Positions 834 through 41,211 of a stretch of DNA of 64,000 nt are shown one piece after another; the first letter of the stretch is position 1, and each line of letters begins with the position of its first letter. The notes under the pieces are model-generated. The model ran no database searches and was not told the DNA's origin. It saw only the letters and a list, made by a program, of their open reading frames with translations. The position numbers and the translations under genes are program-made. This DNA is from an uncultured delta proteobacterium (GTDB taxonomy: Bacteria > Desulfobacterota > Deferrimicrobia > Deferrimicrobiales > Deferrimicrobiaceae). The DNA lies in assembly GCA_963770975.1 (NCBI GenBank), contig CAVYRM010000001.1:10236-74235 (forward strand). The letters are read 5' to 3'.

Positions 834-2450
834 TCAGTCTTCCATGGCGGACCGCGATACGAATTCGTGATGGGTCTTGATCGTCGCCAGTCCCTTGTCG
901 TATTGCGTTTCCGCCATCAGCCTCCCCGAAAGAACGTGCGCCTGGAAGTCGAGAACGATCTCGTTCCATGAGATTTCATAGTCCACATTGAACAGCTTCC
1001 TGTAGATGTACGTGTTTTTCCCCACCGAACTTCCGCATCCGAAAATCTGGATCGGTCCGTTTTTCAGCAGATGTTCGGGGATCTTCCCCGCGATGGGAAT
1101 GTGCTTGTGGCCGTGAAGGATCACCTTCACGCCGTGGGAGTCGCAGAAGCGGACGAATTCTTCCGCGTTCCCCAGGCCGTCCATGTGTTCATAGGCAAAA
1201 CTGATATATTTTCGCAATGATGCACCAAGAGTCTTCATGTGAAACCTTCGCATCTCCGGATCGATCCTGCGGAACTGGAGGGGATGATGGTGCAGCAGGG
1301 AGATCAGCACGGGATGGGTGTTTCCGCCGGGAAAAGGATGCAGGTGTTCCTCTATGGCCCTGTATTGCGCCCCCGTGATTTTCCCCCGCGCCATCCTGCC
1401 GCCATCGGCGGAATTCCAGCAGAGAATCCCGACCGGATGTTCCGGGATCCATTCGATCCGGGTATCGAAAGCGGGAGCCAGCGAGGAGGAAGCGGATCGA
1501 TTTCTCAGTACCCCTTTTTTTCGCACGTCGTGATTACCGAGTACGAAGATCGGCTCCTTGCCGGAAGGATGCAGGTCTTTCAGGTAATCATGGAAGTCGT
1601 TCGCGCAGATCACGTTGCCTTCGTCCGGCGTCTGCAGGATGTCTCCGCTCAACAGGAACCGCACGGACGAATCGCCCTGGTGGTCGTTCACGTACTCCTT
1701 CAGGAGGCTCTTTACCCGCGTGATCCTCTCGATCGATTGTTTACAACCGATATGGGTGTCGCTCAGATGGAGCAGCGTCAGCCGGGAAACCCCATCGGTC
1801 CTGCAGGAAGGGAAGGCGTCCAGGTAATCGCGCGCCAGGAGGCGTCCCGGTGCGTTCGTGAGGTCGTCCTCCCTGGAGAATACCCAGTGGACGGCATCTT
1901 CCGCCCTATCCGCCGGAAGGGGCAGGAACAGCGGATCGTCGCTCCTGCGCCAAAGCAGGATTCCCGGCCAGCGGGTGGATTTCGCCAGGGCGGCCTGGAA
2001 GGGCGGGTATACGTCCGTGACGGCGAAATCCTCATGGGAAGCTTCCTTCAGGTGAAGGATGAGGTGGGGGTCGCTCTTGACGGTACGGGACAGGTGCGAC
2101 AGGAAATGCCTTGATGTCAACAGCCGGTCGGCCGGGTGGGATTTCAGGAACCCGGACGGGATGAGCACCGCGGTCCATCGCCTCTTCGAAAAGATTTCCC
2201 GCAGGTCCATGACGATATCATCGAAACGGTGGTGTGGGCTGGACCGGACGGCGTCCCTCATGCGAACCGCTTTTTCGGCGATCTTCGCGTTCGACGGACC
2301 GTGGAAATACAGCCCGTCGATGAGATTCCCGAGGAACACGACCAGCGTTTCCCTTACGAGATTCGGATCCGCGATGTCGGGGACCTGGTTGCGCCGGTCC
2401 AGGACGTAGGAAATCCAGTTGGCAGACTGCAGGTTGAATCGTTCCTCCAC
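834..2450 (-). CDS. metallophosphoesterase (calcineurin-like) with an unassigned ~230-aa N-terminal domain
   Basis: 538-aa ORF. The C-terminal half carries LHLSDTH, SGD, GNHD, HHHP and GHKH metal-binding motifs. GTG start 2448-2450 is preceded by GGAGG. GC is lower than in the neighbours. Confidence 0.75.
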   Translation of the reverse strand: MEERFNLQSANWISYVLDRRNQVPDIADPNLVRETLVVFLGNLIDGLYFHGPSNAKIAEKAVRMRDAVRSSPHHRFDDIVMDLREIFSKRRWTAVLIPSGFLKSHPADRLLTSRHFLSHLSRTVKSDPHLILHLKEASHEDFAVTDVYPPFQAALAKSTRWPGILLWRRSDDPLFLPLPADRAEDAVHWVFSREDDLTNAPGRLLARDYLDAFPSCRTDGVSRLTLLHLSDTHIGCKQSIERITRVKSLLKEYVNDHQGDSSVRFLLSGDILQTPDEGNVICANDFHDYLKDLHPSGKEPIFVLGNHDVRKKGVLRNRSASSSLAPAFDTRIEWIPEHPVGILCWNSADGGRMARGKITGAQYRAIEEHLHPFPGGNTHPVLISLLHHHPLQFRRIDPEMRRFHMKTLGASLRKYISFAYEHMDGLGNAEEFVRFCDSHGVKVILHGHKHIPIAGKIPEHLLKNGPIQIFGCGSSVGKNTYIYRKLFNVDYEISWNEIVLDFQAHVLSGRLMAETQYDKGLATIKTHHEFVSRSAMED

Positions 2451-2462
2451 CCGGGCCTCCGG

Positions 2463-3098
2463 TTACGATTTTTCTTCGAAGATCTTATTCGCCGCTTCGC
2501 GCAGCATCTCCAACGGGACGGCGCCTTCGAGGATCCACCGGCCGTTGACGATGAAGGTGGGGATCCCCGTGATGCCGATCCGCACGGCGGCTTCCCGGTC
2601 GCGGGCCAGCCGTTTCCCGTAGGCCGCGTCGGACCAGGCCTGCTCGCGTCGCCCGGCGGGGACGCCCGCTGCCTGCGCCAGGTCCCGGAGAACCTGCGTG
2701 TCCCCGATGTTTCTCCTCTCGGTGAAGTAGGCGCGGAACAGCCCTTCGTTGAGCGTCTGGAATACCTCCGTTCCCTCTTCCATCGCCGCCGCCGCGAGGA
2801 GGAGGGCCTTGTGGGAATTCGTCGTGAAGGATCTCTCGGAGAAAACGATCCCCTCCGGCCTCCCCATCCGCTCGAGGTTCTCCATCATCCGGGCCCATTG
2901 GCCGGGGGGGTAGCCCAGCTCGGATACCGGCCTTCCCTCCGGGGGGGTCTCCGGGTGGATCTCCAGGAACCGCCGCTCCAGGCGCACGTCGAATTCCTCC
3001 TTGAGACGGGCGAGACGCCTCTCGCCCACGTAGCAGAACGGTCAGATGTAGTCGGTGAACACCGTCAGCGGCAGCACGGGCTTTTCCTCGGCGGGCAT
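2463..3098 (-). CDS. DsbA/FrnE-like thiol:disulfide oxidoreductase, probable selenoprotein (in-frame TGA at 3042-3044 read as Sec)
   Basis: ATG at 3098 gives MPAEEKPVLPLTVFTDYI-TGA-PFCYVGERRL..., joining in frame to the 188-aa ORF 2463..3029. The TGA replaces the first Cys of the D-x-x-C-P-[FW]-C-Y-[IV]-G motif. A hairpin lies 14 nt downstream. Confidence 0.7.
3008..3027 (-). promoter_or_regulatory. candidate bacterial SECIS hairpin (GGGCGAGA-GGCG-UCUCGCCC)
   Basis: Perfect 8-bp GC-rich stem with a 4-nt loop starting with GG, beginning 15 nt after the TGA at 3042-3044 on the mRNA strand. Confidence 0.55.
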
Positions 3099-3173
3099 GG
3101 ATGGCACACCTCCTCGTTCGCGATCATCAGGAGTACGAAGCCGTCGGCGGAACAAAGTTTCGGTCCGATCCGC

Positions 3174-3980
3174 CTAGTTGACGCTTTCCGCGCTGTATCG
3201 TGCGAGCAGCCCGGTGCGCACTGCATGGCGATGGATGCGGGTGAAAAACCATGACGCCAGCACGATGTACAGTGCAGCGAGAGCGGCGCTCCATGCCAGC
3301 GCGGATCCCCGGTACGCCCCGCCCGTGACGATCGCCCGCATCCCCTCGAACACGTAGGACGGGGGCAACAGGTACGAAATCTCCTGCATCCATCGCGGGA
3401 GCGTGGACACGGGGTAGAAGACCGCGGCGAAGGGGGAGATGAAGGCGGGGACGGGCCAGACGATCCACTCGGACGCCGGCCCGAACCGGAGCACCAGCGC
3501 GCTGGCGAAGATCCCAAGCGCGATCCCGAACAGGAAGAGGACGAGGAGGAACGGCACGAGCATGAGGCCGTAGACGAAGAAGGAGAGCCCGAATACCGCG
3601 GCCGACAGGACGAGCATCGTGAGGAGCCCCAAAGAACTCGTCGCGATGCTCGTGATCACGAGGCCGCAGACGTACTCCCCGATCGAGAGCGACGACGCGA
3701 AGAGGTTGAGGAAGTTGCGGGACCAGACATCCTCGAGGAACGCCATCGACACGCCGTGCATGACCCGCGTGAAGAAGTCCCAGAGGAGGACGGCGCCCAG
3801 GAGCATCGGGACGAAATCGAAGCCGGGAGAGGCGACCGTGTTGAGGTACCGGGTGATGAATCCCCACAGCACGATGTCGATGGCGACCCAGGCGAAGAGA
3901 GGCAGCACGCGCACCGGGCTGCCGCGCAGAAGGTAATACTGCCGAAGCACGATCGCCGCGGTGCGGTGGAAGAGGAACAT
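3174..3980 (-). CDS. ABC-2 type transporter permease
   Basis: 268-aa polytopic hydrophobic ORF directly downstream of the ABC ATPase (4-nt gap). Typical ABC-2 N-terminus: RQYYLLRGSP... Confidence 0.8.
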   Translation of the reverse strand: MFLFHRTAAIVLRQYYLLRGSPVRVLPLFAWVAIDIVLWGFITRYLNTVASPGFDFVPMLLGAVLLWDFFTRVMHGVSMAFLEDVWSRNFLNLFASSLSIGEYVCGLVITSIATSSLGLLTMLVLSAAVFGLSFFVYGLMLVPFLLVLFLFGIALGIFASALVLRFGPASEWIVWPVPAFISPFAAVFYPVSTLPRWMQEISYLLPPSYVFEGMRAIVTGGAYRGSALAWSAALAALYIVLASWFFTRIHRHAVRTGLLARYSAESVN

Positions 3981-16188: not shown

Positions 16189-17205
16189 ATGAAGCTTCCG
16201 GCCGGAAAGCTCCCGCCAGGCCTGCTGGAAAAACTGATCTTCAGGCATCTCGGGATCCCGCGGAAGGAGATCGAGGTCGGGCCGTCCCTCGGCGTGGACG
16301 GCGCGGTCGTCCGGATCGGCGATCGATGCCTCGTGTCGTCCATGGACCCGATCACGGGCGCCCTGGAACGGATCGGGTGGCTCGCCGTGAACATCAACGC
16401 GAACGACGTCGCCACGTTCGGCGTTCGCCCCGCCTTCTTCACCTCCTGCCTCCTGCTGCCGGAAAACGCGTCGGAAGCGATCGTCTTGACGATCTGCCGG
16501 CAGATCGATTCGGGCGCCAGGAAACTCGGCATGGCCGTGATCGGGGGGCACTCCGAAATCACTCCCGGCATCGCCGTCCCGATCGTCATCGGATGCTGCA
16601 TGGGGATGACGGAGAAGGGAAGGTACGTAACGGCGAAAGGCGCGCGAGCCGGGAACGACCTGATCCTCACGAAATCGGCGGGCATGGAAGGCACGGCGAT
16701 CCTGGCCGCGGACAGGCGCTCCCTGCTCGGCGAAAAACTGGGGACCTCCACGGTGAAACGTGCCGCCGCATTCTTCCGCCGCGTCAGCGTGGTGGAGGAC
16801 GCCCTCCTGGCGTTCGGGACGGGCGGCGTCACGGCCATGCACGACCCCACGGAGGGCGGGGTCGCCAACGGAATCCACGAAATGGCCGACGCGTCGAAAA
16901 AGGGATTCAGGGTCTTCGAGGACCGGATATCGATCGCCGAAGAGACGAAACGGATATGCGGCTGTTTCGGGATCGACCCGTTGCAGCTCATCGCTTCCGG
17001 GAGCCTCCTGATCTCCGCGGAAGAGGGATCGTCGGACGGCATCGTGAACGTTCTGCGAAGGAACGGGATCGCCGCCGCTGTGATCGGCCGGTTCGTTTCC
17101 TCGCCCCGGAAACGGTCGATCGTCCGGAGAGACGGCAGCGAAGTGGAACTGGTCCGGCCCGCATCCGATCACCTGTGGCGCGCGCTGGCCGGCAAGGCCG
17201 TTTGA
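16189..17205 (+). CDS. AIR synthase-related (PurM/HypE/ThiL-fold) protein
   Basis: 338 aa with VNINANDVATFG, GGHSE and LILTKSAGMEGTAIL, typical of the AIR-synthase-related superfamily. Starts 5 nt after E2. Confidence 0.7.
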   Translation: MKLPAGKLPPGLLEKLIFRHLGIPRKEIEVGPSLGVDGAVVRIGDRCLVSSMDPITGALERIGWLAVNINANDVATFGVRPAFFTSCLLLPENASEAIVLTICRQIDSGARKLGMAVIGGHSEITPGIAVPIVIGCCMGMTEKGRYVTAKGARAGNDLILTKSAGMEGTAILAADRRSLLGEKLGTSTVKRAAAFFRRVSVVEDALLAFGTGGVTAMHDPTEGGVANGIHEMADASKKGFRVFEDRISIAEETKRICGCFGIDPLQLIASGSLLISAEEGSSDGIVNVLRRNGIAAAVIGRFVSSPRKRSIVRRDGSEVELVRPASDHLWRALAGKAV

Positions 17206-17223: not shown

Positions 17224-20207
17224 GTGATTTCCTCCATGGGCCCGGTTTCCGATCGGGATGCCGTCAAGGCGAAGGGGCTGGAGATCTTCCGGTTCGTGGG
17301 GACGGAAACGCCGGCCGTCTTCGACAGGGGGTGGTGGGCGGGCCGGATGATGGAACGGATGATGCGGGATCCCGCGCTCAAGGTCCCGCTGTTCCGTTTC
17401 GTGGACGTCCTCCCCGTCCTGACCGACAGCGGCCAGGTCGCGAGGCACGCCAGGGAATATTTCGCGGACGGAACGTCGCCGCTCCCGTGGTTCGTGAATT
17501 ACCTCCTTTCCGCCGTCGGCTCGGGATCCGGGCCCGCCGCGGCGCTCACCGCCATTCTCGTGCGAAGGGGCGTTAGCCGCTTCGCGAAGACGTTCATCGC
17601 CGGGGAGAATCCCCGTTCGGCCCTGAAAGCCCTTCGGCGACTCCGGAACGAGGGGAGAACGTTTCACCGTCGACATCCTGGGGGAGGCGGTCGGTGTCCG
17701 AGGCGGAGGCGGAACGGTACAGGGATCGTTACCTCCTGCTGGCGGATACGCTCTCCAGGGAGGTCTCCGGCTGGCCCCCGCTCGATCCGCGGTTGGAACC
17801 GTCGTTCCCGCGCCTGCACCTGTCGGTGAAGATCAGCTCCCTGTACTCCCGCATCGGGCCGGCCAATCACGAGGACAGCGTCCGGGAGGTTCGTCGGAGG
17901 CTGCTGCCCATCCTCGCCAAGGTCCGGGAAGCGGGCGGGTTCGTGAACCTCGACATGGAAACTTACAACCTGAAGGAGATCACGCTCGACGTCCTGACGC
18001 AGACCCTGGACGATACCGGATTCCAGGGATGGGACCACGCCGGGGTCGCCCTCCAGGCGTATCTGAAATGCGCGGAGCGGGATCTGCGGCGGCTGATCGG
18101 CTGGGCGAAGGAGAGGAAATCGGCGGCATCACGGTCCGCCTGGTGAAGGGGGCCTACTGGGAATACGAAACCATCGTGGCTCGGCAAAAGGGGTGGGAGA
18201 TCCCCGTCTTCCCCCGGAAATCGCACACCGACGCGAATTTCGAGCGGTGCGTGGAGATCGCCCTGGAAAACCACGAGCACGTGACGCTTGCCGTCGGCTC
18301 CCACAACGTGCGGTCGATCGCCAAGGCGCTGGCGACGGCGGAGCGGCTCAAGGTCCCCCGGGAGCGGTACGAGTTCCAGATGCTGTACGGCATGGGGGAA
18401 CCGATCAAGCGCGCGCTCATGAAGATGGGGTTCCCGGTACGCGAATACGCCCCGATCGGGGAGCTTCTGCCCGGAATGGCGTACCTGGTGCGGCGACTGC
18501 TGGAAAACGCCTCGAACGAAGGGTTCCTCCAGAGGGCGTTTCATCGCCATGTTCCTCCGGAAGACCTCCTCGCGGAGCCGGAAAGCCTACGTGGAAGGTG
18601 CCGCGCGACAGGGAGGCCGAAGGAGTCGAAGCCGTTTTCCAACGAGCCGGTCGCCGATTTCACGATCCGGGAAATCCGTGCGGCCTTCCGCGATGCCCTC
18701 GCGGAGGTGGGGAACCGGATGCGGGAAGAGTTATCCCGGCGGTCATCGGCGGAAAGGAGTACCGGGAGGGGGAACCGATCGTCTCCGTCGACCCGGCCCG
18801 CCCGCGGGAAGTCGTGGGGACCGTCTACGGCATCACGCGGGAGCTCGCCGATCACGCGGTGCGGGCCGCCCGCGAGGCGCAGAAAGGATGGTCGCGACGT
18901 TCCCCCGGGGACCGGGCGGCGGTCCTGTTCCGCGCCGCTTCCGTCGCGCGCCGGCGGAGAGGGGAGCTCGCGGCATGGCAGGTGCGCGAAGTCGGGAAGA
19001 GCTGGCTGGAGGCGGACGCCGACGTGGCCGAAGCCATCGACTACCTGGAATACTACGGCCGGGAGATGATCCGGCTGGGCAAGGCCGTCCGGTTGGGCGA
19101 CTGCCCCGGGGAAGAGAATCTCTACCTGTACCGTCCGCGGGGCGTGGGCCTCGTCATCGCGCCGTGGAATTTCCCACTCGCCATCTCGGTCGGGATGGCT
19201 TCCGCGGCGCTGGTCGCCGGGAACGCCGTCCTCTACAAGCCGTCGAGCCTCTCCCCGGTCAACGGGTGGCTCGCGTTCTCCCTGCTGCGGGAAGGCGGAG
19301 CGCCCGACGGCGCTCTGAATTTCATCCCCGGAAAGGGTGACGCCGTGGGCGATCGCCTCGTCGGCCATCCCGGAGGTCGATTTCATCCTCTTCACCGGGT
19401 CCCGGGCCGTGGGCCTGCGGATCGTGGAGAAGGCGGGACGGACCGGGCCGGAACAGAAGTCGGTCAAGCGGGCCGTCGTGGAGATGGGGGGCAAGAACGC
19501 GATCCTCGATCGATGCGGATGCCGACCTGGACCAGGCCGATGCCGGCGGTGATGCACTCCGCGTTCGGGTACCAGGGGCAGAAATGCTCCGCCTGCTCCC
19601 GGGTGATCGTCCATGCGGATTGTTACGACCGGTTCCTGGCCCGCCTGTGCGAGGCGGTCGAGGGATTGACGGTCGGCTCGCCGGAGGACCCCGCCAACGC
19701 GTTCGGGCCCGTGATCGACGCCGTCGCGAAGGAGAGGATCCAGGCAATGATCGAACTCGGGAGGAGGGAAGGGAAAGTGGCCGCCGAGGTCCCGGTCCCT
19801 CGGGAAGGGTATTACGTCTCCCCGACGATCTTGACGGATCTTCCCCCGGATTCGAGGATCTTGAGGGAGGAGATTTTCGGGCCGGTGCTCGCCGTCATCC
19901 GCGCCGGAGACATCGAGGAGGCCGTGCGCATGGCGAACTCCTCCGACTACGCGTTGACCGGCGGCCTTTTCTCGAGGAGCCCGGCGACGATCGGGTACGT
20001 CGAGGGAGACGGTTCGAGGTCGGCAACCTGTACATCAACAGGGGGATCACGGGCGCGATGGTGGGCCGGCAGCCATTCGGGGGGTTCCGGATGTCGGGGG
20101 TCGGCTCCAAGGCGGGGGGGCCCGATTACCTCATCCAGTTCATGGAACCGAGGGTCATCACGGAAAACACGATGCGAAGGGGGTTTTCGCCGGACACCTT
20201 GTCGTAA
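17224..20207 (+). pseudogene. putA: bifunctional proline dehydrogenase / 1-pyrroline-5-carboxylate dehydrogenase (PutA-like), multiply frameshifted
   Basis: PRODH part: VDILGEAV, VRLVKGAYWEYE, YEFQMLYGMG. ALDH part: [40 protein letters not shown]. These are spread over all three frames. I traced about eight frame changes at c.17665, 17692, 18118, 18730, 19367, 19508, 19545 and 20005. Confidence 0.85.
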
Positions 20208-20353
20208 CCTTCCTCCCGGATCCGGCCTGCAGCGGCTCCTCCCGGAAAAAATCCTCCGGAGGGGTTCATTTTGTCGTTGAGAATATATCCTATTAGTTAA
20301 TCGGTCCGTACACTGTCAACCTTTCTTACGGATTTCAGTGAAGGGAGGAGACC

Positions 20354-26584: not shown

Positions 26585-26884
26585 ATGGACCAGGATACGA
26601 AAGAGATTCCGGTGAAAACGGAGAAGCTGGAAAAACAGTTGAAGGAATGGGGTATTGACCTGGAGAAGTTAAAGGATAAGGCGAACCTTACGAAGGCGGA
26701 TGCGAAAAGCGAGATCAACAGGGAGATCGCCTCCCTCCGCGACAGGCTGAACGAGGCCCAGGGCAAGCTCGCGGAGCTGAAGACGTCAGGCGACGCGGCG
26801 TCTGCGGAATTGAAGAAAGGCGTCGAGAACGCCTGGGTGGAATTGAAGAAAGCGGTCGAAAACGCCACTGCGAAGTTCAAGTGA
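26585..26884 (+). CDS. coiled-coil protein of unknown function (99 aa)
   Basis: ATG 26585 follows GAGAGGAGGAAG. Lys/Glu-rich heptad-like sequence. Its stop overlaps the start of the next gene (GTGA). Confidence 0.55.
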   Translation: MDQDTKEIPVKTEKLEKQLKEWGIDLEKLKDKANLTKADAKSEINREIASLRDRLNEAQGKLAELKTSGDAASAELKKGVENAWVELKKAVENATAKFK

Positions 26885-27330
26885 TTCCGATGAAGAACAC
26901 GTGGATCCTGATCGCGCATCGCGGCGGTGCGAGAATCTTCGAAAACAGGGGCCCGGGGAAAGGCTTGAACCTGGTCCAGGAGATCCGGCATCCCGAGGGA
27001 CGCCTCAAGAGCAAGGAAATCGGATCGGACGAGCCGGGACGCAGCTTCGACAGCCACGGCCTACGCCACTCCCTCCAGACGGAAGTGGCCCCCGCCGCGC
27101 ACGTCACCGGGATATTCGCCAGGGAACTCGCCGGAATACTCGATGAGGGGCGTGTCCGTCAGCGCTACGCCCGGTTGGTGCTGGTGGCGGAAGCGCGTTT
27201 CCTCGGGATCCTGCGCGCCGCGCTTTCGCGGGAGACCTCCGCGCTGGTCACGACCGCCCTGGTCAAGGATCTGGCAAACGTGGAAGCGGGTGAAATGCCG
27301 GAACGTTTACGGGACGTGATCCAGCTGTGA
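26881..27330 (+). CDS. Host_attach-family protein (misnamed host attachment protein)
   Basis: TWILIAHRGGARIF...SDEPGRSFDS...LVLVAEARFLGILR...KDL pattern matches my recollection of PF10116. Alternative start at ATG 26890. Confidence 0.72.
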   Translation: MIPMKNTWILIAHRGGARIFENRGPGKGLNLVQEIRHPEGRLKSKEIGSDEPGRSFDSHGLRHSLQTEVAPAAHVTGIFARELAGILDEGRVRQRYARLVLVAEARFLGILRAALSRETSALVTTALVKDLANVEAGEMPERLRDVIQL

Positions 27331-35474: not shown

Positions 35475-38011
35475 TCACATGTAATCGGGCATCTCGTCGA
35501 ACTGGAGATACTTGTAGATCTTCTCCTTGTTCGGCTCGATCTTCTCCTTGAAGACGGCGAAGTACTCCTCGGGTCGGGGCAGTCGCCCCAGCGTGGCGGC
35601 GACCGATCCGAGCTCCGCGGAACCGAGATACACCTGGGCGCCGTCGCCCATCCGGTCGTCGAAGTTGCGGGTGGAGGTCGAGAATACGTTGGACTTCTCC
35701 GGGACGCGGGCCTGGTTACCCATGCAGAGCGAGCATCCGGCGATCTCGATGCGGGCGCCGACGGCGCTGTAGACGGAGAAGTAGGCCTCGTCCTTGAGCT
35801 GCAGCTGGTCCATGCGGGTCGGCGGGCAGATCCAGGTGCGCACCGCGGGATTGAACTTCCGCCCCCGCCAGATTTCCGCGGCCGCCCGGAAATGGCCGAT
35901 GTTGACCATGCAGGAGCCGATGAAGACGTCCTGGATCGCGTCGCCGGCGACTTCGGACAGCAGCTTGACGTCGTCGGGATCGTTCGGGCACGCGAGGATC
36001 GGCTCGGTGATCTCCTTCAGGTCGATCTCCAGGACGGCGGCGTACTCCGCGCCCTTGTCGGCCTTCAGGAGGGACGGCTTCCTGAGCCACTTCTCGACTT
36101 CCTTGATGCGGTTGCGCAGCGTCTGCGGGTCGGAGTACCCGTCCGCGACCATCTTCTTCATGAGCGCGACGTTGGAGCGCAGGTACTTCGCAACCGATTT
36201 CTCGGACAGCTGGATGCAGCCGGCGGCGGCGGAACGCTCGGCGGCGGCGTCGGTCAGCTCGAACGCCTGCTCGACGGTCAGGTCGGGCAGACCTTCCATC
36301 TCGAGGATCCGGCCGTTGAAGACGTTGACCTTGTTCTTCTTCGGGACGGTCAGGATCCCCTTCTTGATGGCGAAGTACGGGATGGCGTTGACGACGTCGC
36401 GCAGGGTGATGCCGGGGTTGAGGTTCCCCTTGAACCGGACGAGCACCGACTCGGGCATATCGAGGGGCATGAAGCCGAGGGCGCCGGCGAAGGCGACCAG
36501 GCCGGATCCGGCCGGGAAGGAGATGCCGATCGGGAAACCGGGTGTGGGAGTCGCCGCCGGTGCCGACCGTGTCGGGCAGGAGGAGGCGGTTCAGCCAGGA
36601 GTGGATGACGCCGTCCCCGGGACGAAGCGTCACGCCCCCGCGGGAGGAGACGAAGCCGGGCAGGTTCCTGTGCATCTTGACGTCGGCCGGCTTCGGGTAG
36701 GCCGCGGTGTGGCAGAAGGACTGCATGAACATCGGCGCCTGGAACTTGAGGCACGCCAGTTCCTTCAGTTCGTCGGCGGTCATCGGCCCGGTGGTGTCCT
36801 GGGAGCCGACGGTGGTCATCCTGGGGGTCGCAGGCCGTCCCGGGAAGGACTCCCGCCATGCCGCAGGCGTCGCCGACGATCTTCTGGGCCAGCGAGTATC
36901 CCTGGTTCTTCGCGGGAACGGGGTTATCCGGAAGCGTGAAGACCGTGGAGGGCTTCAGCCCGAGCGCCTTGCGCGCCTTCTCGGTGAGCGCCCGGCCGAT
37001 GATCAGCGGGATGCGGCCGCCGGCCCGGAATTCGTCGGAGAGGGTGTTGGGGGAGAGGGTGAACTTCGAGAGCTTCTTCCCCTGTTCGTCGGTGAGGATG
37101 CCGTTCTTGGTGTCGATCACGATCACGTCGCCGGTCTTCAGCCCGGTGACGTCGGCCTTGAGCGGCAGCGCGCCGGAATCCTGCGCGGTGTTGAAGAAGA
37201 TCGGGGCGATCACGCCGCCGATGATGACGCCGCGCGTCTTCTTGTTGGGGACGCAGGGGATCTCCTCGCCGATGTGCCACAGGACGCTGTTGCAGGCGGA
37301 CTTCCGGGAGGAACCGGTGCCGACCACGTCTCCGACGAACGCGACCCGGAATCCTTCCTTGCGGAAGCCCGCGATCGTCTCGAGGCCGCCCTTGAAGCGG
37401 GTCTTTCCCATGGCCAGCGCGTGTAGCGGGATGTCGGGCCGGCTCCAGGCGTCTCCCGCGGGGGAGAAGTCGTCGGTGTTGATCTCGCCGTCGACCTTGA
37501 AGACCTTGACCTTGATCGTCTCCGGCATGCCGGGACGGGAGGTGAACCACTCGGCCTCCGCCCACGATTTCATGACCTTCTGCGCGGCGGGATTCTTCGC
37601 CTTCGCAATGGCTGCGACTTCGTCGAAGGCGTCGTACACCAGCGTGATCCCGGAGAGCGCCTTCGCGGCGGCATCGGCCAGCTTCTTGTCCTTCAGGGCG
37701 GCGATCAGCGGGGCGACGTTGTAGCCCCCGAGCATGGTGCCCAGGATCGCCACGGCGTCCGCGGCGGTGACCAGCGGTGACTTGATCTTGCCGGAAACGA
37801 CGCCTGCCAGGAACTCGGCCTTCACCTTCGCGGCCGGATCGACGCCGGGCGAGACCCGCTCCTTCAGGAGGCCCACCAGGAAATTCTCCTTGCCCTTCGG
37901 AGGTTTCCGCAGCAGTTTGCACAGTTCACCCGTCTGCTCGGGATTGAGAGGCAGCGGGGGAATTCCCATGCTGGCACGCTCTTCCGCTTCCTTGAGATAC
38001 GATTCGATCAT
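35475..38011 (-). pseudogene. acnB: aconitate hydratase B (bifunctional aconitase 2 / 2-methylisocitrate dehydratase), two frame breaks as sequenced
   Basis: Collinear with E. coli AcnB from memory: [49 protein letters not shown]. Breaks at c.36820-36827 and c.36532-36534, both in short homopolymers. Confidence 0.9.
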
Positions 38012-41140: not shown

Positions 41141-41211
41141 AGAGGTCTTTCCACGTGCAGAATTGGGGCATAATGGCGATTACCAACGGGTTTCTTGCGG
41201 AAGGAGGGACC

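What the first reader, a model, noticed from the sequence alone, without database searches (positions are those of the whole stretch)
2463..3098. Probable selenocysteine-containing DsbA/FrnE-like oxidoreductase (UPFC instead of CPFC) with SECIS-like hairpin
The 188-aa DsbA-like ORF lacks its redox motif. Reading 23 codons further upstream from ATG 3098 gives MPAEEKPVLPLTVFTDYI-TGA-PFCYVGE. The TGA (3042-3044, minus strand) falls exactly on the first Cys of the family motif D-x-x-C-P-[FW]-C-Y-[IV]-G. Fourteen nt downstream lies a perfect 8-bp GC hairpin, GGGCGAGA-GGCG-UCUCGCCC (3008-3027), whose loop starts with GG. That geometry fits bacterial SECIS elements. A Cys-to-Sec swap at the attacking residue of a thioredoxin-fold CxxC is the classic selenoprotein pattern. 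An ORF caller or annotator would truncate this gene or call it pseudo.
Basis: partly seen in the sequence, partly recalled or inferred. Interest (0 to 1): 0.72.

Follow-up and report, generated by a model that had tools for sequence, protein, structure and literature searches.

The report
Selenocysteine FrnE/DsbA-like oxidoreductase gene
This is very probably a real gene for a small cytoplasmic redox enzyme that uses selenocysteine (encoded by a recoded TGA stop codon) in place of its first active-site cysteine; the family has been known since 2005, but gene callers routinely cut it short.

Summary
A minus-strand reading frame runs from ATG 3098 to the stop at 2463. It has one in-frame TGA (3044-3042), followed 14 nt later by an 8-9 bp hairpin with loop GGCG (3028-3007).

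The TGA falls on the first Cys of the CxxC motif of a full-length DSBA domain (Pfam E = 1.6e-37).

- **Conservation of the TGA:** twelve related MAG loci of the candidate phylum Deferrimicrobiota (MBNT15) keep the same TGA, the same flanking peptide VFTDYI-U-PFCYVGERRLARL, a Shine-Dalgarno before the ATG and the same hairpin. Seven of seven distant relatives (31-38% identity) also have TGA at that column.
- **Hairpin:** in five of those distant relatives the hairpin sits at the same offset with compensatory base changes. The window's hairpin meets all published bacterial SECIS criteria.
- **Cys forms:** versions reading DYICPFCY exist.
- **No general reassignment:** TGA is otherwise the commonest stop codon in the window.

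The closest structures are the cytoplasmic FrnE-type oxidoreductases.

"DsbA-like (COG2761, UxxC)" selenoproteins were described in 2005 and are in current catalogues, so this is a new lineage-level member of a known family and not a new kind.

Not shown: sel genes in this genome (none in the window) and actual selenium incorporation.

The parts
2463..3098 (-). Complete selenoprotein coding sequence: 211 codons including Sec19, plus the TAA stop. It encodes an FrnE-type DsbA-like thiol-disulfide oxidoreductase.
   Evidence: Translation. Pfam DSBA PF01323 E = 1.6e-37 covers residues 12-202, profile positions 3-189 of 191. AlphaFold model of the 82%-identical Cys form has pLDDT 94. Best PDB folds are SCO1869 and FrnE, TM 0.81-0.85.
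3042..3044 (-). In-frame UGA read as selenocysteine (U19), the attacking residue of the U-P-F-C redox motif.
   Evidence: Aligns with Cys of CP[FW]C in Cys homologues and with Cys22 of FrnE. TGA is conserved in 12 of 12 clade loci and 7 of 7 distant truncated relatives.
3033..3035 (-). Cys22 (TGC), the resolving residue of UxxC and the only Cys in the protein.
3007..3028 (-). Bacterial SECIS element: 8 Watson-Crick pairs plus a closing U-G pair, apical loop GGCG, loop 22 nt after the UGA.
   Evidence: Fold. Meets the bSECIS constraints of PMC13188914. Invariant at synonymous sites across 13 sequences. A hairpin in the same position in distant Sec forms shows 3 of 8 compensatory pairs.
3027..3029 (-). 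GTG (Val24) that ORF finders and annotators take as the start of a truncated 188-aa product. It is not the true start.
   Evidence: There is no Shine-Dalgarno before it. It lies inside helix alpha-1 of the model.
3109..3115 (-). Shine-Dalgarno sequence GAGGAGG, 10 nt before ATG 3098.
   Evidence: Conserved in all 14 aligned loci.
3134..3161 (-). Conserved upstream motif GAAACTT-N16-TCGTA. This is a putative ECF-sigma-type promoter and the assignment is inference only.
   Evidence: Invariant block in alignment A1 regardless of which gene lies upstream. Unique in the window, and found once per related locus, always upstream of this gene. No sigma-70-type promoter was found nearby.
2559..2561 (-). 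Pro180 of G-I-P-T-F. By homology this is the cis-proline loop that faces the active site in thioredoxin-fold proteins.
   Evidence: Invariant column in alignment A5. Aligns with GVPFF of FrnE.

Best explanation
The gene encodes a 211-residue cytoplasmic FrnE-type DsbA-like thiol-disulfide oxidoreductase whose active site is U19-P-F-C22.

Transcription probably starts at a conserved ECF-sigma-like promoter about 40-60 nt upstream of the ATG (inferred). Translation starts at ATG 3098 behind a GAGGAGG Shine-Dalgarno.

When the ribosome reaches UGA 3044-3042, the hairpin 14 nt downstream (3028-3007, loop GGCG) acts as a bacterial SECIS. It recruits SelB-GTP-Sec-tRNA(Sec), and selenocysteine is inserted instead of termination (inferred from the established bacterial mechanism).

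Sec19 sits at the N-terminal cap of helix alpha-1, after strand beta-1, opposite the Pro180 loop. That is the position of the nucleophilic Cys in every thioredoxin-fold CxxC enzyme. Sec19 would attack substrate disulfides, or oxidised or metal-bound thiols, and then form a selenenylsulfide with Cys22. Recycling would be by an external reductant, because this protein lacks the C-terminal CxxxxC tail that recycles D. radiodurans FrnE.

The likely physiological role is cytoplasmic disulfide reduction or isomerisation under oxidative or thiol stress, by analogy with FrnE.

Shown here: gene structure, conservation of the UGA, Cys/Sec pairing, SECIS geometry and covariation, fold.

Inferred: Sec insertion itself, the promoter, the substrates and the physiological role.
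For: - Frame, TGA and hairpin are as described.
- The DSBA domain spans the TGA.
- 12 of 12 Deferrimicrobiaceae-related genome loci at 76-84% identity keep the TGA with identical flanking peptide, Shine-Dalgarno and ATG.
- Codons 6-18 upstream of the TGA show third-position-biased variation (0.055/0.024/0.215), while the 60 nt before the ATG show none.
- Synonymous diversity is 0.073 over codons 14-32 against 0.23 for the whole gene.
- Cys forms exist: P0001/L017 (TGC), L013, P0121-P0141.
- 17 of the 150 best 50%-identity cluster representatives start just after the CxxC. All 7 whose DNA was fetched have TGA on the Cys column.
- Hairpins at the same offset in five of these show 3 of 8 compensatory pairs and 87.5% of cells paired, against 60% or less in slid registers; 1 of 500 shuffles reaches the observed score.
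- The bSECIS criteria quoted in PMC13188914 are all met: loop 4 nt starting GG, stem 8-9 bp, 22 nt spacing, -14.8 kcal/mol.
- Only 1% of synonymous recodings do as well.
- TGA is the normal and commonest stop codon in the window, 31 of 57 gene calls, so there is no general reassignment.
- FrnE (5cnw) is the best PDB sequence hit at E = 6e-19, with U19 aligned to Cys22. The model is confident, and SCO1869 and FrnE are the best fold matches.
- The DsbA-like UxxC selenoprotein family is documented in PMC1088965, PMC1794560, PMC5029168 and PMC13188914.
Against: - No selA, selB, selD or tRNA-Sec was found in the window or in 15 related loci. The rest of the genome could not be searched, so the machinery is unverified.
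- Whole-region folding energy is not better than shuffles or recodings.
- GC-rich Cys-form homologues fold with similar raw energies.
- Within the clade the hairpin is invariant, so it gives no covariation there. The covariation test rests on only five distant sequences.
- The Cys variant L017 keeps the identical hairpin, so the hairpin alone does not discriminate in that case.
- The assembly carries frameshifts in other genes, so its base-level quality is imperfect.
- There is no experimental evidence of selenium incorporation.
Confidence: 0.9

Rival explanations
1. The TGA is a real stop. The functional product is the 188-aa protein initiated at GTG 3029, as annotated in public databases, and the 18 upstream codons are a short leader ORF or untranslated.
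For: ORF finders and public annotation give 186-194-aa products for 116 of the 120 closest clusters. A GTG is in frame 4 codons after the TGA.
Against: - The 188-aa product would lack strand beta-1 and the whole redox motif, and would begin inside helix alpha-1.
- There is no Shine-Dalgarno before the GTG, whereas a conserved GAGGAGG precedes ATG 3098.
- The upstream 18 codons are conserved as protein and align to the DSBA profile and to FrnE.
- Distant relatives have no start codon at that position (their called starts lie 5-13 codons after the TGA) yet keep the TGA on the Cys column.
Confidence: 0.04
2. The UGA is read through, but by something other than Sec-tRNA(Sec). Examples are near-cognate Cys or Trp insertion, or condition-dependent Cys insertion. 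The hairpin would then only slow termination.
For: The sel machinery was not seen in the sequence available. Hairpins downstream of stop codons can stimulate read-through in general (my own knowledge, not tested here).
Against: - The position is exactly the catalytic Cys of a CxxC, the classic Sec site.
- The hairpin fits the specific SelB-type model, with GG at the loop start 22 nt from the UGA. The same geometry recurs in unrelated lineages.
- The family is an accepted selenoprotein family in organisms with sel genes (PMC1794560, PMC5029168).
Confidence: 0.04
3. The gene is a pseudogene, or the TGA is a sequencing or assembly error for TGC.
For: This assembly has frameshifted PutA and AcnB genes. 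One related metagenome contig (L017) has TGC at this codon.
Against: - The same TGA is found in 12 independent MAGs, and by inference in more than 100 truncated 90%-identity clusters from JGI, ENA, NCBI and Logan assemblies.
- Purifying selection acts on both sides of the codon.
- TGA is present in 7 of 7 distant relatives.
Confidence: 0.02

Closest known systems
DsbA-like selenoprotein family, 'form 1' (PF01323 / COG2761, UxxC). Described by Zhang, Fomenko and Gladyshev 2005 (PMC1088965) and listed in PMC1794560, PMC5029168 and PMC13188914.
   Same: DSBA domain, Sec replacing the first Cys of the CxxC (UxxC), a bSECIS hairpin directly downstream with G at the loop start, and widespread Cys homologues.
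   Different: The lineage is the candidate phylum Deferrimicrobiota / MBNT15. The papers read here do not name this phylum as using Sec, and its genome paper (PMC9386147) does not mention selenium. The clade's SECIS has its 3' arm one codon further downstream than in the five distant Sec forms compared. Whether this exact clade is already in BSepDB could not be checked.
Deinococcus radiodurans FrnE (DR_0659; PDB 5cnw, 5co3, 5xwh) and Streptomyces coelicolor SCO1869 (3gl5): cytoplasmic FrnE-subfamily DsbA-like oxidoreductases.
   Same: Best sequence match in the PDB (E = 6e-19) and best fold matches (TM 0.81-0.85). CP[W/F]CY[IV]G motif at the same position, G-[IV]-P loop, no signal peptide. FrnE is a stress-induced cytoplasmic disulfide reductase/isomerase (PMC8945050).
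   Different: Sec instead of Cys at the attacking position. Only about 26-28% identity. The protein lacks the C-terminal CxxxxC tail that recycles drFrnE and has a single Cys, as does S. roseofulvus FrnE (PMC8945050). Activity is untested.
Periplasmic DsbA (E. coli type, CPHC).
   Same: Thioredoxin fold with an inserted helical domain, and the Pfam DSBA family.
   Different: No signal peptide. The NCBIfam DsbA equivalog scores 20 bits against a cutoff of 279. Fold similarity is only about TM 0.5-0.6. This is a different subfamily and a different cellular compartment.
Kappa-class glutathione transferase and 2-hydroxychromene-2-carboxylate isomerase.
   Same: The same DsbA-like architecture; next-best fold matches at TM 0.71-0.76.
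   Different: 16-20% identity. By my own knowledge those enzymes use a Ser and bound glutathione rather than a CxxC/UxxC dithiol centre. This was not tested here.

Membership tests
Bacterial selenoprotein gene (Sec-UGA plus bSECIS) | In-frame UGA aligned with a conserved Cys in homologues (a Cys/Sec pair). | tested here: met
   U19 aligns with Cys in P0001, P0121, P0122, P0125, P0127, P0131, P0141, L013 and FrnE Cys22.
Bacterial selenoprotein gene (Sec-UGA plus bSECIS) | UGA-containing orthologues in other organisms, with coding conservation on both sides of the UGA. | tested here: met
   12 of 12 clade loci and 7 of 7 distant relatives. Codon-position bias upstream. Gene-wide codon alignment.
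Bacterial selenoprotein gene (Sec-UGA plus bSECIS) | bSECIS model: apical loop 3-9 nt, upper stem 4-16 bp, G in the first two loop positions, 16-37 nt from UGA to loop, MFE of -7.5 kcal/mol or lower (PMC13188914, Fig. 2A). | tested here: met
   Loop GGCG, 8-9 bp, 22 nt, -14.8 kcal/mol. The model is loose: 21% of synonymous recodings pass it, but only 1% reach -14.8.
Bacterial selenoprotein gene (Sec-UGA plus bSECIS) | Hairpin maintained by selection (covariation or synonymous-site constraint). | tested here: met
   Invariant across 13 clade sequences, with rare codons held fixed. 3 of 8 compensatory pairs among five distant Sec forms. The sample is small, and no covariation can be seen within the clade.
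Bacterial selenoprotein gene (Sec-UGA plus bSECIS) | selA, selB, selC (tRNA-Sec) and selD present in the same genome. | not testable with these tools
   None among the 58 ORFs of the 64-kb window scanned, and no tRNA at all. No tRNA in 15 related loci.
Bacterial selenoprotein gene (Sec-UGA plus bSECIS) | Selenium actually incorporated at the UGA. | not testable with these tools
   Requires 75Se labelling or mass spectrometry.
DsbA-like selenoprotein form 1 (PF01323, UxxC) | PF01323 DSBA domain above the gathering score, with Sec as the first residue of the CxxC. | tested here: met
   129.6 bits against a cutoff of 25.6, covering residues 12-202. Motif U-P-F-C.
FrnE subfamily of cytoplasmic DsbA-like oxidoreductases | [quoted passage not shown] | tested here: met
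   phmmer against 5cnw gives E = 6e-19. Foldseek gives TM 0.81-0.85 to FrnE and SCO1869.
FrnE subfamily of cytoplasmic DsbA-like oxidoreductases | Cytoplasmic location (no signal peptide or lipobox). | tested here: met
   Strand beta-1 begins at residue 8 of the model, and the N-terminus MPAEEKP is charged with no hydrophobic stretch. No dedicated signal-peptide predictor was available.
FrnE subfamily of cytoplasmic DsbA-like oxidoreductases | C-terminal CxxxxC tail. It is present in many members but not all, so it does not strictly define the family (PMC8945050). | tested here: not met
   The protein ends at residue 211 and has only one Cys, C22.
Periplasmic DsbA (equivalog NF008198) | Score above the NCBIfam equivalog cutoff, plus an export signal. 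| tested here: not met
   20.4 bits against a cutoff of 279. No signal peptide.

The most novel reading that the evidence does not exclude
Beyond the minimal SECIS, the gene may carry a second selected RNA- or DNA-level element. Synonymous variation stays suppressed for about 20 codons past the hairpin (codons 33-51), and an invariant ECF-sigma-like motif travels with the gene through different neighbourhoods. Together these could form a self-contained, stress- or selenium-responsive expression module for a selenoprotein in a phylum (Deferrimicrobiota/MBNT15) for which Sec use is not mentioned in the literature read here.
Probability: 0.12. Interest if true: 0.45.

Novelty: new member of a known kind. 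Interest (0 to 1): 0.27.

Why it matters
The practical value is mainly in annotation. In the 5.8-billion-protein collection, 116 of the 120 closest clusters are stored as 186-194-aa proteins that begin after the UGA and lack their active site, including some named "DsbA family protein/oxidoreductase" in NCBI and UniRef. No NCBIfam equivalog model covers this clade.

Recognising the UGA restores the catalytic residue. It also implies that members of the uncultured phylum Deferrimicrobiota (MBNT15), common in peat, soil and sediment, use selenocysteine, so selenium should be considered in their redox physiology.

It adds no new mechanism. The UxxC DsbA-like family and the SelB/SECIS mechanism are both established.

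Tried and rejected
1. Whole-region folding energy as evidence for the hairpin. It is not significant against dinucleotide shuffles (z = -1.1) or synonymous recodings (13.5% as good). Raw energies do not separate Sec forms from GC-rich Cys forms. It was replaced by a geometry-constrained recoding test and a covariation count.
2. An extended lower stem to explain synonymous constraint out to codon 51. RNAalifold on 13 clade sequences predicts long-range pairs, but none shows covariation. It is not claimed.
3. Rfam. Nothing at gathering thresholds in the window, and only a chance snoRNA match at E = 2.5 in a permissive scan of 2400-3300.
4. tRNA-Sec. ARAGORN finds no tRNA in the window or in 15 loci.
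5. sel genes in the window. 58 ORFs were scanned with Pfam or NCBIfam, covering 51 of the 57 gene calls. The only resemblance is an AIR-synthase-like protein at 16189-17205 that scores 64.7 bits against the SelD cutoff of 125 and scores higher for HypE, so it is not SelD.
6. Other selenoprotein genes in the window. A scan for in-frame TGA with coding composition on both sides found four adjacent same-frame gene pairs and one short ORF pair, none convincing. The filter also missed the target gene, so it is not sensitive.
7. A conserved operon. Neighbours differ between loci; the ABC-2 transporter pair lies upstream only in L006, L007, L010 and L017.
8. Looking up the window's own 188-aa ORF in the contig index: not on record.
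9. A literature link between Deferrimicrobium/MBNT15 and selenium: none found.

Full report
**1. The observation**

On the minus strand an ATG at 3098-3096 opens a frame that reads MPAEEKPVLPLTVFTDYI, then TGA (3044-3042), then PFCYVGERRLARL... to a TAA at 2465-2463. A mechanical ORF list gives only the 188-aa piece from GTG 3029. Fourteen nucleotides after the TGA lies GGGCGAGA-GGCG-UCUCGCCC (3027-3008). ViennaRNA adds a closing U-G pair, giving 3028-3007.

**2. What the protein is**

With U read as C, the 211-residue protein matches Pfam DSBA (PF01323) at E = 1.6e-37 over residues 12-202, profile positions 3-189 of 191. The 18 codons before the TGA are therefore part of the domain. No NCBIfam equivalog fits, and E. 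coli-type DsbA scores 20 bits against a cutoff of 279.

The best solved relative is Deinococcus radiodurans FrnE (5cnw, E = 6e-19). Its CPWCYIGKRR aligns on U-PFCYVGERR, so U19 corresponds to FrnE Cys22, and its GVPFF loop aligns on GIPTF.

An AlphaFold model of the 82%-identical Cys form P0001 is confident (pLDDT 94.1, pTM 0.90). It places residue 19 between strand 8-15 and helix 20-32, the canonical thioredoxin-fold position. Foldseek ranks SCO1869 and FrnE first (TM 0.81-0.85), then kappa-GST and HCCA isomerase. Periplasmic DsbAs score only about 0.5-0.6.

The N-terminus has no signal peptide, and the protein has a single Cys, C22. It is a cytoplasmic FrnE-type enzyme without the C-terminal CxxxxC tail that recycles drFrnE. 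Some FrnE homologues also lack that tail (PMC8945050).

**3. Is the TGA decoded?**

- *Truncated database entries.* Of the 120 closest clusters in the large protein collection, 116 are 186-194 aa, truncated as here. One, P0001, is 215 aa with Cys.
- *Related genomes.* Twelve genome loci from Deferrimicrobiaceae and "Deltaproteobacteria" MAGs (76-84% identity) all have TGA at the same codon, with the peptide VFTDYI-U-PFCYVGERRLARL, an ATG 18 codons upstream and a conserved GAGGAGG before it.
- *Coding signature.* Upstream codons 6-18 vary mostly at third positions: pairwise diversity is 0.055/0.024/0.215 by codon position. The 60 nt before the ATG vary evenly at 0.40/0.36/0.47, and one locus has in-frame stops there.
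- *Internal GTG.* There is no Shine-Dalgarno before it.
- *No general reassignment.* TGA is the commonest ordinary stop codon in the window, 31 of 57 gene calls.
- *Wider family.* Among the 150 best 50%-identity representatives, most are full length with DYICPFCY[IV]G, and 17 begin just after the CxxC. DNA was fetched for seven of these (31-38% identity), and all seven have TGA on the Cys column.

This is the Cys/Sec-pair signature used to define selenoproteins (PMC13188914).

**4. The hairpin**

It meets every constraint of the published bSECIS model: loop 3-9 nt, stem 4-16 bp, G in the first two loop positions, 16-37 nt from UGA to loop, and -7.5 kcal/mol or lower (PMC13188914). The values here are loop GGCG, 8-9 bp, 22 nt and -14.8 kcal/mol.

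Energy alone is weak evidence. The 61-nt region has z = -1.1 against shuffles. 13.5% of synonymous recodings reach the same MFE. GC-rich Cys-form homologues fold with similar energies.

Stronger evidence:

- Only 1% of 400 synonymous recodings give a model-compliant simple hairpin as stable as the real one.
- The arms use the rare codons CGT (6% of Arg, used twice) and AGG (14%), fixed in 12-13 of 13 sequences. Synonymous diversity over codons 14-32 is 0.073 against 0.23 gene-wide.
- Five distant Sec forms have a hairpin in one shared register at the same offset. It shows 3 of 8 compensatory pairs and 87.5% of cells paired, against 60% or less for slid registers, and 1 of 500 shuffles reaches the observed score.

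Limits on this evidence:

- Within the clade the hairpin is invariant, so there is no covariation there, and predicted longer-range stems are unsupported.
- The recent Cys variant L017 (TGC) keeps the identical hairpin. The distant Cys form L013 has none.

**5. What could not be shown**

No tRNA and no selA, selB or selD occur in the window, where 58 ORFs were scanned, or in the related loci. The rest of the genome was out of reach. Selenium incorporation is inferred, not demonstrated.

**6. Context**

Neighbouring genes differ between loci. A block GAAACTT-N16/17-TCG(A/T)A, about 35-65 nt before the ATG, is invariant and travels with the gene. It is unique in the window at 3161-3134 and occurs once per related locus. 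It resembles ECF-sigma promoters, which is my inference. No sigma-70-type promoter or terminator is predicted nearby. In this window a metallophosphoesterase gene follows 12 nt after the stop and may be co-transcribed.

**7. Comparison with what is known**

"DsbA-like protein (COG2761, UxxC)" was one of the new selenoprotein families reported from the Sargasso Sea in 2005 (PMC1088965). It was found in Anaeromyxobacter, Desulfovibrio and Desulfotomaculum in 2006 (PMC1794560). A 2016 survey counted 45 genes in 41 organisms (PMC5029168). A 2026 review lists it as "DsbA-like protein form 1, PF01323, UxxC" (PMC13188914).

The present gene meets the features of that family. What may be new is the lineage. 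The relatives belong to Candidatus Deferrimicrobiota, formerly MBNT15, and that phylum's genome description does not mention selenium.

**8. Verdict**

The feature is real and mis-annotated in public databases, but it is a new member of a well-known kind. My confidence that this is a Sec-decoding gene is 0.9. Interest is low to moderate.

Noticed in passing
window 3134-3161 (minus strand); also L001-L012 about 95-125 nt before the TGA: An invariant motif GAAACTT-N16/17-TCG(A/T)A lies upstream of the gene in every locus, regardless of the neighbouring gene. It resembles an ECF-sigma-type promoter, so the selenoprotein gene may be a self-contained stress-regulated unit.
   Followed up: partly
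window 2946-3002 (codons 33-51 of the gene, minus strand): Synonymous variation stays unusually low for about 20 codons beyond the SECIS hairpin: the lowest sliding-window sums in the gene fall here. RNAalifold gives no supported structure. This is unexplained.
   Followed up: partly
L017:480-482 (JGI metagenome 3300014885 contig; protein P0001): A close relative at 82% identity has TGC (Cys) instead of TGA, with a nucleotide-identical SECIS hairpin and a GTG start. It is either a very recent Sec-to-Cys replacement or a population or assembly variant.
   Followed up: partly
L014:100-340 (same MAG as L005), and L012 C-terminal region: L014 is a second, more divergent copy of the gene at a contig start. 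It keeps the TGA but has a 1-nt deletion in the hairpin, which causes a frameshift. L012 has a frameshift near the 3' end. These are probably long-read indel errors or decaying paralogues.
   Followed up: no
window 17224-20280 (+) and 35475-38011 (-): Two large housekeeping genes are split across frames. PutA is split into PutA_N 17224-17829, Pro_dh 17694-18146 and Aldedh 18193-20280. Aconitase B is split into 36350-38011 and 35475-36470. This suggests indel errors in the assembly, or pseudogenes.
   Followed up: partly
window 45029-48200 (+): LexA (45029-45640) is followed by two ORFs with no Pfam match, then about 1.6 kb containing only fragmentary ORFs with no Pfam hits. It could be a decayed or frameshifted SOS-cassette gene (my guess).
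   Followed up: no
window 41155-42507 (+): A single 450-aa ORF combines an N-terminal response-regulator receiver domain (residues 26-142) with a complete LpxC deacetylase (residues 181-447, above the TIGR00325 cutoff). I do not know of this fusion being described as common.
   Followed up: no
window 16189-17205 (+): An AIR-synthase-superfamily protein next to the pyruvate dehydrogenase genes. It scores below cutoff for HypE, ThiL and SelD (64.7 bits against 125 for SelD), so it is not the selenophosphate synthetase.
   Followed up: partly
window 26881-27330 (+): A small protein matches Host_attach and bacterial archaeo-eukaryotic release factor family 12 (baeRF). It sits beside response-regulator genes, and no link to UGA recoding is evident.
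   Followed up: no
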